Shown one piece after another: positions 12,895-53,124 of a DNA stretch of 64,000 nt. The stretch is from Escherichia coli (GTDB lineage: Bacteria; Pseudomonadota; Gammaproteobacteria; Enterobacterales; Enterobacteriaceae). The notes beneath the pieces are model-generated. The model saw only the letters and a list, made by a program, of their open reading frames with translations, was not told the DNA's origin and did not search any database. Both the position numbers and the translations under genes were made by a program. The stretch lies in NCBI RefSeq assembly GCF_050320075.1, contig NZ_CP190018.1. One strand, given 5' to 3'. Position 1 is the stretch's first letter. Every line of letters begins with the position of its first letter.

Positions 12895-15800
12895 TTAGTC
12901 AAACGGCGGTGGGGCCAGCACTTCACGATTACCGTTGTGCCCCTGTTCGCTGACAATCCCCTGCGCTTCCATCTGTTCGATAATACGCGCTGCACGGTTA
13001 TAACCAATGCGGAACTGACGCTGTACGCCAGAAATTGATGCTTTGCGTTTTTCAGTGACAAACTGCACCGCCTGATCGAACAACGGATCCAGCTCTTCAG
13101 CGCCATCGAAACCGCCCGCGCCACCTTCGCTTTCACTGTCGGAGGTGATGCCATCAACATACTGTGGGCGACCACGCGCTTTCCAGTCCTGCACCACGGC
13201 ATGAACTTCCTGATCGCGAACAAAAGCACCATGAACACGTACCGGCAACGTGGAGTTCGGCCCAGAGTAAAGCATATCCCCCATACCCAGCAGTGATTCC
13301 GCGCCAGCCTGATCAAGAATGGTACGTGAGTCAATCTTACTGGATACGGTAAAGGCGATACGGGTCGGAATATTCGCTTTAATCAGACCAGTAATAACAT
13401 CAACCGATGGACGCTGCGTTGCCAGTACGAGGTGGATACCCGCGGCACGGGCTTTTTGCGCCAGACGTGCTATAAGCTCTTCCACTTTTTTACCTACCGT
13501 CATCATCAGGTCGGCAAATTCGTCCACCAACACCACAATGTACGGTTCTTTTTTCAGCACCGGATGCTGGGCATCCATACTGTCACCCGGCTTCCAGTAC
13601 GGGTCTGGAATCGGACGCATCATGCGATCGGCTTCAGCAATTTTTTCGTTATAACCCGCCAGATTACGCACACCTAGGGCGGACATCAGCTTATAACGAC
13701 GTTCCATTTCATTTACGCACCAGCGCAAAGCGTTGGCAGCATCTTTCATGTCGGTAACGACTTCCGTTAACAGATGCGGAATGCCTTCATAAACCGAAAG
13801 CTCCAGCATTTTCGGGTCGATCATGATGAAACGCACATCTTCTGGCTGTGCTTTATAAAGCATGCTCAGGATCATCGCGTTCACCCCGACAGACTTACCG
13901 GAACCGGTAGTCCCCGCAACCAACAAGTGCGGCATTTTCGCCAGATCGGCAACCACCGGCTCACCGGCGATATCTTTACCCAGCACCACGGTTAATGGCG
14001 ACGGATTATCGCGGAATTTGGCGTTATCCAATACTTCGCGCAGATAAACGGTTTGTCGTTTTTTATTCGGTAACTCCAGACCTACATAGGGTTTGCCAGG
14101 AATAACTTCAACGACACGCACCGCCACCGTCGAAAGTGAACGGGCAAGGTCCCGTGACAAGTTAGAAATGCGCGCCGCTTTTACGCCCGGTGCCAGGTTA
14201 AGTTCAAAGCGAGTGATAACCGGCCCCGGAGAGTAATTGACGACATCGGCTTTAATACGGAAATCAGCCAGACGCGCTTCCACCAGACGCGCCATTTGTT
14301 CAAGCGCAAAGGTATCTACCGGCTCCACTTCGCTCGGCGGCGGTGTCAGCAAATCCAGAGAAGGCAGCGGCGTCGTCGGTTTATGCAACGGACGGCTGTC
14401 ACCATTGCGCATCAACAGCGGATGAAGCAGGGTATCATGCGGCTGCGGCGCAACTGGCTGTTGCGGCTGCTGATATTGCGGCTGCTGTGCAACCGGCTGT
14501 TGCGGCTGCTGATATTGCTGCTGCGGCGCAACCGGTTGTTGTGGCTGCTGATATTGCTGCTGCGGTGCAACCGGCTGTTGCGGCTGCTGATACTGCGGCT
14601 GCGGCGCAACTGGTTGCTGCGGCTGCTGATACTGTTGCTGCGGTGCAATCGGTTGTTGCGGCTGCTGTACAGGTTCAACAATTGGCGTAAACAACGGTTC
14701 GTGTGGACCATCATCCAGCAACGCTTTCATTGGCGAAAATTCAAAATCATCCAGCGTGAACGGATTCGCCCCAGCCGGTTGTTCGCCGGAATAACGTTGT
14801 TGTTGAGTTTGCGCAAACTGACGAGCCAGTTCAGCCTCTGCCGCAGCATCTGCATCTTCTGCGTTCACGGGCACATCATGTTGATACTGTTCGCCATAGC
14901 GTTGCTGCTGTGTCTGGGCGAACTGACGTGCCAGTTCATCCTGCTGCATCGCATCGATTTCATCATCGTTATACTGATCGCCGGAATCGTACTGATTGCG
15001 CTGAGCTTCACGGGCTTTTTCTTCTGCCGCACGCTGTGAGGGCAGCTTAATACCGTAAGACGCCAGTTCACGACGAGTTGGCACGCGGATACGTTTCGGT
15101 CGTGGCAACTGCGGGCCAATCCCCTCTTTGACCTGTGGACGCGGTCCAGCGCTATTTGCCAGACTGAAGACTGGCGCGGCAACGGTTGCGGCAGCCCCCG
15201 TCGCCAGTGTCGCTTTTTTCACGCCAGATGCCAGAGGGGAAACAGCGGCAGCGGCTTCCACTGGAGGTACTGCTGCAACAGAAGGTGTTTTCAGCGAAGA
15301 TTTGATCGGTTCTGGTTCTTTAACCGGTTCAGGAATCGGTTGATACCAGGCCGCAAGTTGTTCACGTTCACGGGCACGCTTCTCTTCCACTTCTTCAAAA
15401 TAGTAAAGCGGCGGACGCGCGGGTTTTGTCTCTTCTACAACGGGTTCAGGCTCCACAACAGGCTGCTGTTCAACAGGTTGCGGCTGTTGGTACAACGGCT
15501 CCTGAGCGACTGGCTGCTGATAAGTTTGCTCAGTCTGGTATGTAGACTGTGGAGCAAAAGTGGATTGCTGCTCTTCGGCTTGCCAGGCGTTACCTGCCAC
15601 CGATTGTTCTGGCGCAGGGGCGTAATACGACTGTTGCGCAGACTGTTCCGGCGCAGTTGCGTAATACGGCTGCTGAACAGGTTGTTCCGCCGCAGGAGCG
15701 TAGTAAGGTTGTTGCACAGGTTGTTCCGCTGCTGGCGCATAATACGGCTGCTGTGGCTGTACAGGTTGTTGCAGCGGCTCATTATATTGCACTGCAGGCT

Positions 15801-16962
15801 GCGCATATTGTGGCTGCTGTGGGTAACCTTCCTGTGCAGGAGCAATAACCGGCTCTCCCGTTTGTGGCCCCGGTACAGGCTGCCAGGCTACTGTAGGTTG
15901 TGCAGGTGGAACATCAACAGAGGCAACAGGCGGCGTCTGAGTCACAGGTTCAACCGGCGCAGCCCAGCTTTGTGTCGCCGTGGTAGCAGCAGCTGCTACA
16001 GCAACAGGTTCGGTAATTGGCGCACCGTTTAATAATGGATCGTATTCGTCATATTCTGGCTGCGTTGCACGATTGCCCGAAAAGAGGACGTCGTCCGGGT
16101 CGGCAGCCACACCGCGTGCAGTGTAGGTAATCTCTTCTTCATCATCCATCCGCTTACCGGAGAACAACGCAGCATCTGTTTGCCGCCCCATCGGATTAAT
16201 GAATTTTTCCGCCAACCGTTTACGACGCGCTAACGCGCCGCGAAGAATACGGGCACGGCGTGATTCATGCTGTTTGCCGTGATTTTCATCTTCATACTCT
16301 TCGTCGTCTTCATACTCATCTTCATCGACCCAGGTATCATCGCGACGGGTACGATTACTGGCGAAGGTGAGAATGTTTAAAATCCAGCCGCCGAGTTTTT
16401 CAGCAATGGTCACCCATGACCAACCGGTGAACAGCGTCAGACCCGCAGCCCAAACGCAGAGCAGCGCAATAGTTCCCCCGCTACTGTGTAGCAGTGGTTG
16501 TAGCGTAGTGCTTAGTAAGCTGCCAATGACGCCACCGGAGGCAAAATACCAGATATCGTCAGCGTTGATTGCCGCCAGACCACAGGAGGTAAGGATGAGC
16601 GCCAAAACGCCAATGATGCGTAGCGAAACGGCAAAATAATCAATGTATTCGTCGCTGGACTGATGACGCCAGGCAAACCAACAACCGCCGACAATAATGA
16701 CGGGAATGGTGTAAGCCATCACGCCAAAAATAAAGAACAGCGTATCTGCCAGCCATGCACCGGGCATCCCACCTAAATTATGGATAGGTTCATGCCAGGC
16801 CGTTTGCGACCAGCTGGGGTCCGAAGGGTTAAAGCTTAGTAAGGCAGCCATCAACCAGACGGCAAACAGGACAATAAGGATCAGCAACGCCTCCAGAAGG
16901 CGGCGGCCGCTACTTAACTTTGTCAATGTGACTTCTTTGTCTTCAGTGTATTCCTGGCTCAA
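12895..16962 (-). CDS. ftsK: DNA translocase FtsK
   Basis: 1355-aa ORF: N-terminal membrane domain, long P/Q-rich linker, C-terminal motor (GTTGSGKS Walker A). Confidence 0.95.
14437..14668 (-). repeat. in-frame 39-bp tandem repeats in the FtsK linker (13-aa [13 protein letters not shown] units)
   Basis: About six near-identical cggctgctgatattgcggctgctgtgcaaccggctgttg units on the + strand. Confidence 0.8.
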
Positions 16963-17040
16963 GAAAGGCTCTCCAGGTTACAGGCTTTTCCTGCCCGATG
17001 CTAAAACGGACAACAGTACCAGGTTACCCCAGTACTGTTG

Positions 17041-17056
17041 CTGTATGGATTAACAG
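17041..17056 (-). promoter_or_regulatory. candidate LexA (SOS) box upstream of ftsK
   Basis: CTGTATGGATTAACAG fits CTGT-N8-ACAG, ~80-95 bp upstream of the ftsK start codon. Confidence 0.5.
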
Positions 17057-17096
17057 GAGTGTAATCAAAATACGCCGATTTTGCACCTGTTCCGTG

Positions 17097-17591
17097 TTAG
17101 CGCGTCTTAATAACCAGACGATTACTCTGCTTGACTTCTTCCATAACAACGTATGTCCGTGTGTCATTGACGCCAGGCAGACGCAGCAGGGTTTCCCCCA
17201 GCAACTTACGGTAAGCTGACATATCCGGCACGCGTGTTTTCAACAGGTAGTCGAAATCACCAGATACTAAATGACACTCCTGAATTTCTTCAAGTTTTTG
17301 TACAGCGGTATTGAATTGTTCAAACACATCCGGTGCGCCACGATTCAGAGTAATCTCAACGAATACCAGAAGTGATGCATCCAGATAATGGGGGTTAAGC
17401 AGCGCCGTATAGCCCTGAATAAACCCTTGTCTTTCCAGCCGACGCACACGCTCAAGGCACGGCGTTGGGGAAAGTCCCACACGTTTAGAAAGCTCGACGT
17501 TAGAAATACGCCCATCCTTTTGCAACTCATTAAGAATGTTACGATCGATACGGTCGAGATCTTTGCCAGGGCGCTTCTTGCTATCTACCAT
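17097..17591 (-). CDS. lrp: leucine-responsive regulatory protein
   Basis: ORF 17097..17645 trimmed to ATG at 17591 (MVDSKKRPGKDLDRIDRNILNELQKDGR..., 164 aa). Confidence 0.95.
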   Translation of the reverse strand: MVDSKKRPGKDLDRIDRNILNELQKDGRISNVELSKRVGLSPTPCLERVRRLERQGFIQGYTALLNPHYLDASLLVFVEITLNRGAPDVFEQFNTAVQKLEEIQECHLVSGDFDYLLKTRVPDMSAYRKLLGETLLRLPGVNDTRTYVVMEEVKQSNRLVIKTR

Positions 17592-18018
17592 TATTATTGT
17601 CTCTCTGTATTCCTTCCCTACTCCTGTCTGACCCTGAAACATCACTGTTCAGAGTCGCTACCCGTCACGATAGACCGAAATCATGAAGATTCACGGCGCG
17701 CAATGCCTGGGTCTACGGTGAGAAGACCGTTGCCTTGTGGCTGCTATCGACATCACGAATGGCGTCTGTCCACGCCATACGTAGATTTCACTAGCACGGT
17801 AAACATGGTATTTACATGCATGGTTATGCGCATATAAGAATACTGTTTTTTTTCTTCCTCGAATGTTTTCGCAAAACACCAGGGGATTGTCAAAGCAAAA
17901 CATCGATTTTTAGTACAACATGCCAGATATTCATTACTAGGGGCGTTTATTCATCATTTAATCGGCTTATAAAGCGGGAAATTTAAGTAGCAGAGGTGAT
18001 AATGACGGGAGAATTTGA

Positions 18019-20990: not shown

Positions 20991-22712
20991 ATGCGCGCTT
21001 TGCTACCCTATCTGGCACTGTATAAACGTCATAAATGGATGTTAAGTCTTGGTATTGTGCTGGCAATTGTCACGCTGCTCGCCAGTATCGGTCTGTTGAC
21101 ACTTTCCGGCTGGTTCCTCTCGGCCTCAGCGGTAGCGGGGGTTGCCGGACTGTACAGCTTCAACTATATGCTACCCGCTGCGGGCGTGCGTGGTGCAGCA
21201 ATCACCCGTACTGCCGGGCGCTATTTTGAACGTCTGGTAAGTCACGACGCGACTTTCCGCGTGTTGCAGCATCTGCGCATTTATACCTTCAGCAAATTGC
21301 TGCCCCTCTCCCCTGCCGGACTGGCGCGCTATCGTCAGGGCGAATTGCTCAACCGCGTGGTGGCGGATGTTGATACGCTCGATCATCTTTACCTGCGCGT
21401 TATCTCGCCGCTGGTGGGCGCTTTTGTGGTGATTATGGTGGTGACAATCGGGTTAAGTTTCCTTGATTTCACCCTCGCCTTTACGCTGGGCGGCATTATG
21501 TTACTGACGCTTTTCCTGATGCCACCGCTGTTTTATCGTGCGGGAAAAAGCACCGGGCAAAATCTGACTCATCTTCGCGGGCAGTATCGCCAACAACTGA
21601 CGGCCTGGCTGCAAGGGCAAGCTGAGCTGACCATTTTTGGTGCCAGCGATCGTTATCGCACGCAGTTAGAGAATACCGAAATTCAGTGGCTGGAAGCGCA
21701 ACGACGTCAATCTGAACTCACCGCATTGTCGCAAGCGATAATGCTGCTCATTGGCGCGTTAGCGGTGATCCTGATGCTGTGGATGGCGTCTGGCGGCGTT
21801 GGCGGCAATGCTCAACCCGGCGCGTTAATTGCCCTGTTTGTCTTCTGCGCGTTAGCCGCGTTTGAAGCACTGGCACCAGTAACGGGTGCATTTCAGCATC
21901 TGGGGCAAGTCATTGCCTCTGCCGTTCGGATCACTGACTTAACGGATCAAAAACCGGAAGTCACCTTCCCTGATACCCAAACTCGTGTTGCCGATCGCGT
22001 TTCGTTGACGTTACGGGATGTTCAGTTCACTTATCCGGAGCAATCCCAACAGGCACTTAAAGGGATTTCTCTTCAGGTAAACGCCGGAGAACATATAGCG
22101 ATTCTCGGGCGAACCGGATGCGGCAAATCAACACTGTTACAACTGCTGACCCGCGCATGGGACCCGCAACAGGGCGAGATTTTGCTTAACGGTAGCCCCA
22201 TAGCCAGCCTGAATGAAGCGACTCTACGACAGACCATCAGCGTTGTTCCTCAGCGAGTGCATCTGTTTAGCGCCACGCTGCGTGATAATCTGTTACTCGC
22301 CTCGCCTGGCAGTAGTGATGAGGCTCTGGCGGAGATCTTACGTCGCGTTGGTCTGGAGAAGTTGCTCGAGGATGCAGGTCTCAACAGTTGGTTAGGTGAA
22401 GGCGGACGCCAGCTCTCCGGTGGTGAACTGCGCCGTCTGGCTATCGCCCGTGCGCTGTTACATGATGCGCCGCTGGTATTGCTGGATGAACCTACAGAAG
22501 GCTTAGATGCCACAACCGAAAGTCAGATCCTTGAATTGCTTGCAGAAATGATGCATGAGAAAACGGTGTTAATGGTCACCCATCGACTTCGCGGACTCTC
22601 TCGTTTCCAACAAATAATAGTGATGGACAACGGGCAAATTATTGAGCAAGGTACTCACGCAGAACTGCTTGCCAGACAGGGGCGTTATTACCAGTTTAAG
22701 CAGGGTTTGTAA
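20991..22712 (+). CDS. cydC: ABC exporter subunit required for cytochrome bd assembly
   Basis: 573-aa ORF starting 1 nt after cydD stop (translational coupling); ABC ATPase GRTGCGKSTLL. Confidence 0.93.
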   Translation: MRALLPYLALYKRHKWMLSLGIVLAIVTLLASIGLLTLSGWFLSASAVAGVAGLYSFNYMLPAAGVRGAAITRTAGRYFERLVSHDATFRVLQHLRIYTFSKLLPLSPAGLARYRQGELLNRVVADVDTLDHLYLRVISPLVGAFVVIMVVTIGLSFLDFTLAFTLGGIMLLTLFLMPPLFYRAGKSTGQNLTHLRGQYRQQLTAWLQGQAELTIFGASDRYRTQLENTEIQWLEAQRRQSELTALSQAIMLLIGALAVILMLWMASGGVGGNAQPGALIALFVFCALAAFEALAPVTGAFQHLGQVIASAVRITDLTDQKPEVTFPDTQTRVADRVSLTLRDVQFTYPEQSQQALKGISLQVNAGEHIAILGRTGCGKSTLLQLLTRAWDPQQGEILLNGSPIASLNEATLRQTISVVPQRVHLFSATLRDNLLLASPGSSDEALAEILRRVGLEKLLEDAGLNSWLGEGGRQLSGGELRRLAIARALLHDAPLVLLDEPTEGLDATTESQILELLAEMMHEKTVLMVTHRLRGLSRFQQIIVMDNGQIIEQGTHAELLARQGRYYQFKQGL

Positions 22713-52392: not shown

Positions 52393-53124
52393 ATGAAAAA
52401 GTTAGTTCTTGCCGCTTTACTTGCTTCCTTTACTTTCGGTGCTTCTGCCGCAGAGAAAATCAATTTTGGCGTTTCAGCCACCTATCCACCCTTTGAATCT
52501 ATAGGTGCTAATAATGAGATTGTCGGCTTTGATATCGATCTGGCAAAAGCCTTGTGCAAACAAATGCAGGCAGAATGTACTTTTACGAATCACGCGTTCG
52601 ACAGCCTGATCCCGTCACTGAAATTCAGAAAATATGACGCCGTAATCTCCGGTATGGATATCACCCCGGAGCGTAGCAAACAGGTATCGTTTACCACGCC
52701 CTACTATGAAAACTCAGCCGTCGTGATTGCCAAAAAAGATACCTACAAAACGTTTGCCGATCTGAAAGGCAAACGTATTGGGATGGAAAACGGCACCACG
52801 CACCAGAAATATATTCAGGAGCAGCACCCGGAAGTGAAAACTGTCTCCTATGACAGTTATCAGAATGCCTTTATCGACCTGAAAAATGGTCGTATTGATG
52901 GGGTATTTGGTGACACAGCGGTGGTAAACGAATGGCTGAAAACCAATCCACAACTGGGCGTTGCGACTGAGAAAGTGACCGATCCGCAGTACTTCGGCAC
53001 CGGCCTGGGTATCGCTGTACGTCCGGATAACAAAGCTCTGCTGGAGAAACTGAATAACGCGCTGGCGGCAATTAAAGCTGACGGTACATATCAGAAAATC
53101 AATGACCAGTGGTTCCCACAGTAA
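52393..53124 (+). CDS. artJ: arginine ABC transporter periplasmic binding protein
   Basis: ORF 52342..53124 trimmed to ATG at 52393 (MKKLVLAALLASFTFGASA..., 243 aa); paralog of artI. Confidence 0.94.
   Translation: MKKLVLAALLASFTFGASAAEKINFGVSATYPPFESIGANNEIVGFDIDLAKALCKQMQAECTFTNHAFDSLIPSLKFRKYDAVISGMDITPERSKQVSFTTPYYENSAVVIAKKDTYKTFADLKGKRIGMENGTTHQKYIQEQHPEVKTVSYDSYQNAFIDLKNGRIDGVFGDTAVVNEWLKTNPQLGVATEKVTDPQYFGTGLGIAVRPDNKALLEKLNNALAAIKADGTYQKINDQWFPQ

What the first reader, a model, noticed from the sequence alone, without database searches (positions are those of the whole stretch)
17041..17056. Well-formed LexA box in the lrp-ftsK intergenic region
CTGTATGGATTAACAG matches the SOS-box pattern CTGT-N8-ACAG and lies upstream of ftsK, consistent with the SOS-inducible ftsK promoter I recall being described. 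It is known biology, noted as a sanity check on orientation and annotation.
Basis: partly seen in the sequence, partly recalled or inferred. Interest (0 to 1): 0.15.

Follow-up and report, generated by a model that had tools for sequence, protein, structure and literature searches.

The report
Known LexA box at ftsK promoter
This is the already-described LexA (SOS) repressor binding site sitting on the start point of the DNA-damage-inducible dinH promoter of the E. coli cell-division gene ftsK, so it is ordinary, correctly read biology.

Summary
CTGTATGGATTAACAG lies at 17041-17056 in the 134-bp spacer between lrp (17591..17097, -) and ftsK (16962..12895, -) of an E. coli chromosome. On the gene strand the 20-mer is TCCTGTTAATCCATACAGCA, identical to the published ftsK SOS box.

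With a PWM built from 17 other published LexA sites it scores 16.3 bits. That is the best score in the 64-kb window (about 0.06 expected) but at the weak end of real boxes.

The box is kept at the same place in 76 of 80 Enterobacterales species. The CTG/CAG arms are invariant and changes occur only at low-information positions.

A published dRNA-seq start site maps to 17051/17050, 7 nt after a conserved TACACT -10. The box therefore spans -5 to +11, which is classic promoter occlusion by LexA.

New detail: the promoter fires into a conserved, covarying hairpin (17041..17010). A published Term-seq 3' end lies at its foot (17010, +42). This is probably the leaky lrp terminator. Providencia and Moellerella keep the hairpin but have lost the box and promoter.

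The parts
17041..17056 (.). LexA (SOS) box, 16-bp palindromic core CTGT-N8-ACAG. The 20-mer on the gene strand is TCCTGTTAATCCATACAGCA = 17058..17039.
   Evidence: Sequence. 16.3 bits with the leave-one-out PWM, best in the window. Identical to the published ftsK SOS box. Conserved in 76/80 Enterobacterales loci with invariant arms.
17081..17086 (-). Inferred -35 hexamer GTGCAA of the dinH (ftsK) promoter
   Evidence: 98% conserved. GTGCAA sits at a fixed 17-nt spacing from the -10 in 67/77 sequences, while the spacer itself is only 71% conserved. Only 3/6 match to TTGACA. The assignment is inferred.
17058..17063 (-). Inferred -10 hexamer TACACT of the dinH promoter; its last base is the first base of the LexA 20-mer
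   Evidence: Present in 76/77 orthologous spacers (TATACT in the other). It lies 7 nt upstream of the published TSS.
17050..17051 (-). Transcription start site of the dinH/ftsK promoter (A/A), inside the LexA box. The box core spans -5 to +11.
   Evidence: dRNA-seq TSS FWD_(II)-932358/932359 on U00096.2, flagged 'Overlap with RegulonDB: YES' (PMC4681348 Table S2). Converted with a +777 offset. The offset was validated because the neighbouring lrp and trxB TSSs of the same table land exactly 7 nt after -10-like hexamers in the window, and by the Term-seq anchors.
17010..17041 (-). Conserved RNA hairpin (14-bp stem 17041..17028 / 17023..17010, loop GUAA) followed by CCGUUUU. Probably the leaky intrinsic terminator of lrp, lying at +11..+42 of the dinH transcript.
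   Evidence: dG -24 kcal/mol, z -3.9. 9/9 consensus pairs show compensatory double changes across 43 sequences. Retained in Providencia/Moellerella, which lack the box. Not called by the simple terminator scan, because the U-tract is 4 of 8.
17010..17010 (-). Mapped in vivo RNA 3' end (...CUGGUACUGUUGU-3'), 48 nt upstream of the ftsK start codon
   Evidence: Term-seq 3' end 933176(+) in two growth conditions. Rho score 1.03 ('No'), intrinsic terminator score 1.70, coverage 475 upstream and 419 downstream (PMC7815308 supplementary files 1 and 3). Mapped to the window.
16969..16974 (-). Shine-Dalgarno GGAGAG of ftsK, within the conserved block CCTGGAGAGCC
   Evidence: At least 95% conserved block 8 nt upstream of the TTG start.
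12895..16962 (-). ftsK coding sequence (TTG start), the regulated gene
   Evidence: NCBIfam equivalog PRK10263, 3031 bits. RefSeq annotation. TTG start conserved in nearly all orthologues.
17097..17591 (-). lrp coding sequence, the upstream neighbour whose 3' UTR contains the box, promoter and hairpin
   Evidence: NCBIfam equivalog PRK11169, 343.6 bits. RefSeq annotation.

Best explanation
The motif is the LexA operator of the dinH promoter, the SOS-inducible promoter reported to be essential for ftsK. A sigma-70 promoter (GTGCAA, 17 nt, TACACT) sits in the lrp-ftsK spacer and starts transcription at A17051/A17050. The LexA dimer binds the palindrome CTGT-N8-ACAG, which covers -5 to +11 (-7 to +13 for the 20-mer) and abuts the -10 hexamer. 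Bound LexA therefore excludes RNA polymerase or blocks open-complex formation. The box is a rather poor match to consensus, so repression is expected to be partial. That fits an essential gene which must also be expressed without DNA damage. After DNA damage, RecA-stimulated LexA self-cleavage frees the promoter and ftsK transcription rises. The transcript has an 89-nt leader that must pass a conserved hairpin (+11..+42), which also generates a mapped 3' end. This hairpin is most likely the leaky terminator of lrp. Shown here: the sequence, PWM score, conservation and covariation. Taken from papers: the TSS, the 3' end, and the UV and ciprofloxacin inducibility. Inferred: the -35/-10 assignment, the occlusion mechanism, partial repression and the terminator role of the hairpin.
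For: The box is at the stated coordinates and is the top PWM hit of the window at 16.3 bits, with about 0.06 expected. The identical sequence is published as the SOS box of UV-induced ftsK. ftsK is listed as a LexA regulon member with a known box. dinH is described as the essential ftsK promoter. An ftsK reporter is induced like other LexA targets. The box is conserved in 76/80 Enterobacterales loci at the same offset from the lrp stop. CTG and CAG are 100% conserved against 45% for the rest of the spacer. Twenty sequence variants differ only at positions 6-8, 11-13 and 19-20. They keep 12-21 bits, where random variants of equal Hamming distance average -4 to +13, falling below 3 bits at distances of 4-6. 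The published TSS lies inside the box, 7 nt after the conserved TACACT. The segment is at least 99% identical in 5385/5426 E. coli records.
Against: The score is at the weak end of true sites, and my heterology index is the worst or second-worst of the 18-site set, depending on the matrix. The promoter hexamers match consensus at only 7/12 positions, and the simple promoter scan called nothing. The TSS is 'class II': TAP-enriched but without a step in coverage. The primary LexA-binding and promoter-mapping papers (Lewis 1994, Dorazi & Dewar 2000, Wade 2005, Fernandez de Henestrosa 2000) are not in the held library, so direct binding data were not read here. The coordinate conversion between genome versions rests on a remembered +777 offset, validated only indirectly by three anchors.
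Confidence: 0.93

Rival explanations
1. The block is conserved mainly because it is the core or initially transcribed region of an essential promoter. Its LexA-like palindrome would be incidental, with little or no physiological repression.
For: The box overlaps the TSS and abuts the -10. Positions 1-2 (TC) are invariant although they carry little information for LexA. The score is weak for a LexA site.
Against: Both arms of the palindrome are symmetrically invariant. Substitutions fall only at positions that LexA tolerates and often raise the score to 19-21 bits. Published UV and ciprofloxacin induction and regulon listings support LexA control.
Confidence: 0.04
2. The site's main role is as a LexA roadblock, or as part of the lrp 3'-end structure. 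It would control read-through from lrp (and the promoter inside lrp) into ftsK, rather than repress a promoter of its own.
For: The box lies in the lrp 3' UTR, immediately upstream of and sharing one base with the hairpin that gives a mapped 3' end. A second ftsK promoter inside lrp is reported.
Against: A 5'-triphosphate TSS maps inside the box behind a conserved -10. Providencia and Moellerella keep the hairpin without the box, so the hairpin does not need it. There is no covariation between the box and the hairpin. A roadblock effect could still exist as a side effect.
Confidence: 0.02
3. It is a chance match to a short degenerate pattern with no function.
For: The bare pattern CTGT-N8-ACAG occurs twice in the window against 0.68 expected, which is not significant.
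Against: PWM rank 1 of about 64,000 positions. Conservation across an order of bacteria with LexA-compatible substitutions. Published identification.
Confidence: 0.01

Closest known systems
dinH / ftsK SOS box of E. coli K-12 (Lewis et al. 1994; Wang & Lutkenhaus 1998; Dorazi & Dewar 2000; as cited in PMC4080785 and PMC6590174)
   Same: It is the same element. The 25-mer is identical to the published ftsK SOS box, it has the same flanking genes, and a TSS recorded in RegulonDB falls inside it.
   Different: Nothing differs in the box. This strain's FtsK has minor coding differences (1355 aa, Thr at residue 6 where I recall Ile in K-12), which are irrelevant to the site.
Canonical gammaproteobacterial LexA operators (recA, sulA, umuDC, lexA, uvrA/B and others; consensus TACTGTATATATATACAGTA)
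   Same: CTG-N10-CAG palindrome, position overlapping the core promoter or start site, and DNA-damage inducibility of the downstream gene.
   Different: There are 6 mismatches to consensus and a G/C-containing centre (TTAATCCATA). It scores 16.3 bits against 20-29 for strong boxes. It controls an essential housekeeping division gene rather than a dedicated repair function. Orthologous boxes in Serratia, Hafnia, Edwardsiella and Photorhabdus are nearer to consensus at 19-21 bits.
Intrinsic (Rho-independent) terminators and leader attenuators
   Same: A GC-rich covarying stem-loop with a U-rich 3' flank and an in vivo 3' end at its foot that is insensitive to bicyclomycin.
   Different: The U-tract is poor (UGUUGU/CCGUUUU). 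The published terminator score of 1.70 is below the 3.0 cut-off, and coverage hardly drops across it (475 to 419). There is no alternative antiterminator structure or leader peptide. It lies downstream of, not upstream of, the promoter for the next gene.

Membership tests
LexA operator (SOS box), E. coli type | 16-bp palindrome CTG-N10-CAG (usually CTGT-N8-ACAG) scoring like known sites | tested here: met
   Perfect CTGT/ACAG arms. 16.3 bits with a PWM of 17 other published sites whose own range is 13.4-29.1. Top hit of the window.
LexA operator (SOS box), E. coli type | Located so that bound LexA overlaps the promoter or start site of the regulated gene | tested here: met
   The published TSS (U00096.2 932358-9) maps to window 17051-17050, so the box is at -5..+11. 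The conserved -10 TACACT abuts it. The hexamer assignment is inferred.
LexA operator (SOS box), E. coli type | Physical binding of LexA (footprint, gel shift, ChIP) | not testable with these tools
   The primary papers are not held. Reviews list ftsK among genes with a 'known SOS box'.
LexA operator (SOS box), E. coli type | DNA-damage-inducible, LexA-dependent expression of the downstream gene | not testable with these tools
   From the literature only: ftsK is UV-induced on tiling arrays, the ftsK reporter is induced by ciprofloxacin like other LexA targets, and SOS induction is cited from Wang & Lutkenhaus 1998.
LexA operator (SOS box), E. coli type | Conservation of the operator in orthologous promoters, with substitutions tolerated by LexA | tested here: met
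   Present in 76/80 Enterobacterales loci. Arms are 100% conserved. The 20 variants change only low-information positions and keep 12-21 bits.
Intrinsic terminator (for the adjacent hairpin) | Stable GC-rich stem-loop supported by covariation | tested here: met
   -24 kcal/mol, z -3.9. 9/9 pairs have compensatory changes.
Intrinsic terminator (for the adjacent hairpin) | Uninterrupted U-tract directly after the stem | tested here: not met
   Only 4 U in the 8 nt after the stem, and not called by the scan. The published terminator score of 1.70 is below 3.0.
Intrinsic terminator (for the adjacent hairpin) | Rho-independent RNA 3' end at the structure in vivo | tested here: met
   Term-seq 3' end at window 17010 in two conditions, Rho score 1.03 'No'. 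The data cannot separate true termination from a processed, hairpin-protected end.

The most novel reading that the evidence does not exclude
The LexA-repressed promoter reported to be essential for ftsK is embedded in the lrp 3' UTR, upstream of the lrp terminator hairpin. Every dinH transcript therefore meets a terminator-like structure at +11..+42, where an in vivo 3' end is mapped. If that hairpin acts on dinH transcripts, it is a conserved attenuator that caps FtsK output, and/or it yields a 42-nt SOS-inducible RNA. That would be a second, post-initiation layer on SOS control of cell division. The layer was discarded in the Providencia/Moellerella lineage along with the box.
Probability: 0.2. 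Interest if true: 0.4.

Novelty: already known. Interest (0 to 1): 0.12.

Why it matters
As a check on annotation it matters little. Biologically, the site links the SOS response to chromosome-dimer resolution and septation through FtsK, which has been established since the 1990s. This analysis adds three modest points. First, the operator, its promoter and their exact geometry are conserved across most Enterobacterales. Second, E. coli carries one of the weaker versions of the box. Third, the promoter fires into a conserved, leaky terminator hairpin that produces a mapped 3' end. That arrangement could limit FtsK expression, and one lineage has dismantled it.

Tried and rejected
1. An alternative promoter, TTGATT (17068..17063), 17 nt, TACAGC (17045..17040), would start inside the hairpin arm. 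I rejected it for three reasons: its -35 is not conserved (TTGATT in only 39/77), its -10 lacks the final T in E. coli, and the published TSS is at 17051, not about 17033.

2. I searched for the primary papers (PubMed 11065367, PMC1461638, PMC1276724, PMC4288677). None is held.

3. I searched for TSS or 3'-end rows in the supplements of PMC4782308, PMC11092163, PMC7132871, PMC10301672 and PMC9023263. Nothing was found or held. Text searches for promoter names gave only noise.

4. An Rfam scan of 16850-17200 gave only a chance hit, E 0.46 to a Dictyostelium snoRNA on the other strand.

5. The simple promoter/terminator scan called neither the promoter nor the hairpin, because both fall just below its thresholds.

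6. I did not quote the published heterology index for ftsK because I could not read the source. The HI values given are my own, computed from a 17-site matrix.

Full report
**Observation.** The sequence CTGTATGGATTAACAG is present at window 17041-17056.

- The window is an E. coli chromosome. A 1-kb segment around the site is at least 99% identical in 5422 of 5426 records from the complete-genome set, and RefSeq annotates lrp and ftsK there.
- Both genes are on the minus strand: lrp is 17591..17097 and ftsK is 16962 (TTG start)..12895.
- The site therefore lies in the 134-bp lrp-ftsK spacer. Its 3' edge is 78 nt upstream of the ftsK start codon.
- Read on the gene strand, the 20-mer is TCCTGTTAATCCATACAGCA.

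**Is it more than chance?** The bare pattern CTGT-N8-ACAG is not significant. There are 2 matches in 64 kb against 0.68 expected, and 15 of 100 shuffles gave at least 2.

I built a symmetric position weight matrix from 17 LexA sites printed in Table 4 of PMC3009722, leaving ftsK out.

- The site scores 16.3 bits, the best of all positions in the window. The training sites score 13.4-29.1.
- The exact tail probability is 9.5e-7 per position. That gives about 0.06 expected per window and about 1e-4 in the spacer. Only 11 of 300 dinucleotide-preserving shuffles reach that score.
- It is a weak-to-middling box. It has six mismatches to the 20-nt consensus, and my own heterology index of 10.3-11.4 is the worst or second-worst of the 18-site set, depending on the matrix used.
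- The other CTGT-N8-ACAG match, at 52841, scores 4.9 bits and is a chance match.

**Identity with the known site.**

- The 25-mer ACTCCTGTTAATCCATACAGCAACA is printed as the SOS-box motif upstream of UV-induced ftsK in PMC3009722.
- ftsK is listed among LexA-regulated genes with a known SOS box in PMC6590174.
- PMC4080785 states that ftsK expression rises in the SOS response. It also states that the second, essential ftsK promoter is the SOS promoter dinH, while a first, dispensable promoter lies inside lrp.
- A recent preprint used the ftsK promoter as a LexA-only target and saw LexA-type induction bursts under ciprofloxacin.

**Conservation.** I fetched 80 loci encoding Lrp from one genome per species. 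All of them have ftsK downstream.

- In 76 of the 80 loci, the best PWM hit in the spacer is an orthologous box 36-53 nt after the lrp stop, scoring 11.9-21.0 bits.
- In an alignment of 72 distinct spacers, the CTG and CAG arms are 100% conserved and the box centre 87.5%. The unstructured remainder of the spacer is 45% conserved.
- The 20 distinct box variants differ only at positions 6-8, 11-13 and 19-20, which carry little information in the PWM.
- Variants 4-6 substitutions away from the E. coli box still score 12-21 bits. Random variants at those distances average -4 to +3 bits, and only 0.0004-0.07 of them do as well. The sequences are related, so these fractions are descriptive rather than probabilities.
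- Boxes in Serratia, Hafnia, Edwardsiella, Morganella, Proteus, Xenorhabdus and Photorhabdus are closer to consensus (19-21 bits) than the Escherichia/Salmonella/Klebsiella version (16 bits).
- Within E. coli, the 91-nt promoter-box-hairpin segment is at least 99% identical in 5385 of 5426 records.

**Promoter geometry.** Two further blocks are almost invariant: GTGCAA (17086..17081, 98%) and TACACT (17063..17058, 99.8%).

- They are separated by a 17-nt spacer that is only 71% conserved and has essentially no length variation. This is the signature of a -35/-10 pair.
- The match to consensus is only 7 of 12, and the simple scan called nothing.
- Table S2 of PMC4681348 (dRNA-seq of E. coli, reference U00096.2) lists a TAP-enriched start, FWD_(II)-932358/932359, flagged as overlapping a RegulonDB start site.
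- I converted this with the +777 offset between U00096.2 and U00096.3. The Term-seq table anchors the ftsK start at 933224 in the newer assembly (3' end 933176 is -48). The start then maps to window 17051-17050.
- The offset is from memory, so I checked it. The same table's lrp start (931550-2) maps to 17859-17857, 7 nt after a -10 spaced 17 nt from a perfect TTGACA. Its trxB start (931302) maps to 18107, 7 nt after TACAAT.
- The dinH start is likewise 7 nt after TACACT. I had written down 932358 as the prediction of this promoter model before searching for it.
- The LexA core therefore spans -5 to +11, and the 20-mer spans -7 to +13. This position fits steric exclusion of RNA polymerase.
- The 'class II' label means enriched for 5'-triphosphate without a coverage step. 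That is what the authors expect for promoters nested downstream of another transcription unit. Here the upstream unit is lrp.
- An alternative promoter I first considered (TTGATT, 17 nt, TACAGC) is rejected by the lack of conservation and by the TSS.

**The hairpin next door.** Directly 3' of the box is an inverted repeat that shares the box's last G.

- It folds into a 14-bp stem (17041..17028 with 17023..17010) at -24 kcal/mol, z -3.9.
- Across 43 sequences, the 9-bp consensus stem has compensatory double changes at all 9 pairs.
- Term-seq data (PMC7815308 supplementary files 1 and 3) place an RNA 3' end at K-12 933176, 48 nt before the ftsK start. It is seen in two growth conditions with read counts of 4691 and 2694.
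- That 3' end has Rho score 1.03 (no Rho dependence), intrinsic-terminator score 1.70 (below the authors' 3.0 cut-off), and similar coverage upstream (475) and downstream (419).
- The printed flanking sequence is found in the window, and the 3' end is base 17010, the last U of ...CUGGUACUGUUGU at the foot of the stem.
- The paper's text does not mention ftsK or LexA.
- Relative to the dinH start, the hairpin occupies +11..+42 of an 89-nt leader.
- The simplest reading is that this is the leaky terminator of lrp. It lets read-through from lrp continue, and dinH-initiated polymerases must also cross it.
- The data at hand do not tell which transcripts give the 3' end, or whether it arises by termination or by trimming back to the hairpin.
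- No Rfam family matches the region.

**A natural dissection.** Three Providencia species and Moellerella have no LexA-like site in the spacer. Best scores are 4-12 bits at non-homologous places.

- They lack the GTGCAA and TACACT blocks but keep the hairpin right after lrp.
- Between the hairpin and an ATG-initiated ftsK they carry 300-800 bp of AT-rich DNA.
- Their relatives Morganella, Proteus, Xenorhabdus and Photorhabdus keep a 19.1-bit box.
- This shows that the hairpin belongs functionally to lrp, and that the promoter and operator form a separable module that this lineage has replaced. By inference, ftsK there is no longer under LexA control through this site.

**Verdict.** The element is the known dinH/ftsK SOS box. 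Novelty: already known. Interest is low.

The only reading with some novelty is that the conserved promoter-then-terminator arrangement attenuates ftsK expression or yields a short SOS-inducible RNA. I give this about 0.2 probability. It would be of moderate interest if true.

Noticed in passing
window 17010-17041 (minus strand): A conserved, covarying hairpin lies immediately after the LexA box, between the dinH promoter and ftsK. A published Term-seq RNA 3' end sits at its foot (17010, +42 of the dinH transcript). It is probably the leaky lrp terminator, so the ftsK promoter sits inside the lrp 3' UTR.
   Followed up: yes
L055, L057, L059 (Providencia) and L056 (Moellerella), about 1696-2615: These four loci keep the post-lrp hairpin but lack the LexA box and the GTGCAA/TACACT promoter blocks. 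They have 300-800 bp of AT-rich DNA before an ATG-initiated ftsK. This looks like a lineage-specific loss of this SOS operator.
   Followed up: partly
L035, L053, L054, L063, L064, L070-L081 (box about 36-53 nt after the lrp stop): Orthologous boxes in Serratia, Hafnia, Edwardsiella, Morganella, Proteus, Xenorhabdus and Photorhabdus are nearer to consensus (19-21 bits) than the E. coli/Salmonella/Klebsiella version (16 bits). This suggests tighter LexA repression of ftsK in those genera.
   Followed up: no
window 22480-22499: The second-best LexA PWM hit of the window is TGCTGGATGAACCTACAGAA (14.1 bits), inside the cydC coding sequence near its 3' end. 41 of 300 shuffles reach this score, so it is probably chance.
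   Followed up: no
window 46655-46674: The third-best LexA PWM hit is CATTGTTAATTTTAACAGTT (13.0 bits), with ATTG instead of CTG in one arm. 59 of 300 shuffles reach this score. Context not examined.
   Followed up: no
window 52841-52856: The only other CTGT-N8-ACAG match in the window is CTGTCTCCTATGACAG. It scores just 4.9 bits with the PWM and is a chance match.
   Followed up: yes
window 16953-16977 (minus strand): In the predicted leader fold, CCUGG just upstream of and overlapping the Shine-Dalgarno GGAG pairs with CCAGG at codons 3-4 of ftsK, enclosing the TTG start. Together with the non-ATG start, this could keep FtsK translation low. The bases are nearly invariant, so covariation cannot test it.
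   Followed up: no
window 17756 (minus strand): Published Term-seq data list a strong RNA 3' end 165 nt upstream of the lrp start codon, inside the long lrp leader (intrinsic terminator score 7.37). The lrp TSS maps to 17859-17857, behind a perfect TTGACA at 17893..17888. This may be premature termination in the lrp 5' UTR.
   Followed up: no
window 16980-16994 (minus strand): A 14-15-nt insertion (GGCAGGAAAAGCCTG) forms a small extra hairpin in the ftsK leader. It is present in Escherichia, Citrobacter, Salmonella, Klebsiella, Raoultella and some Enterobacter, and absent from most other genera.
   Followed up: no
window 16700-17700: In the E. coli complete-genome collection, 8 of the 5432 matches to the lrp-ftsK segment are on records labelled as plasmids. 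One genome of 5426 has no match.
   Followed up: no
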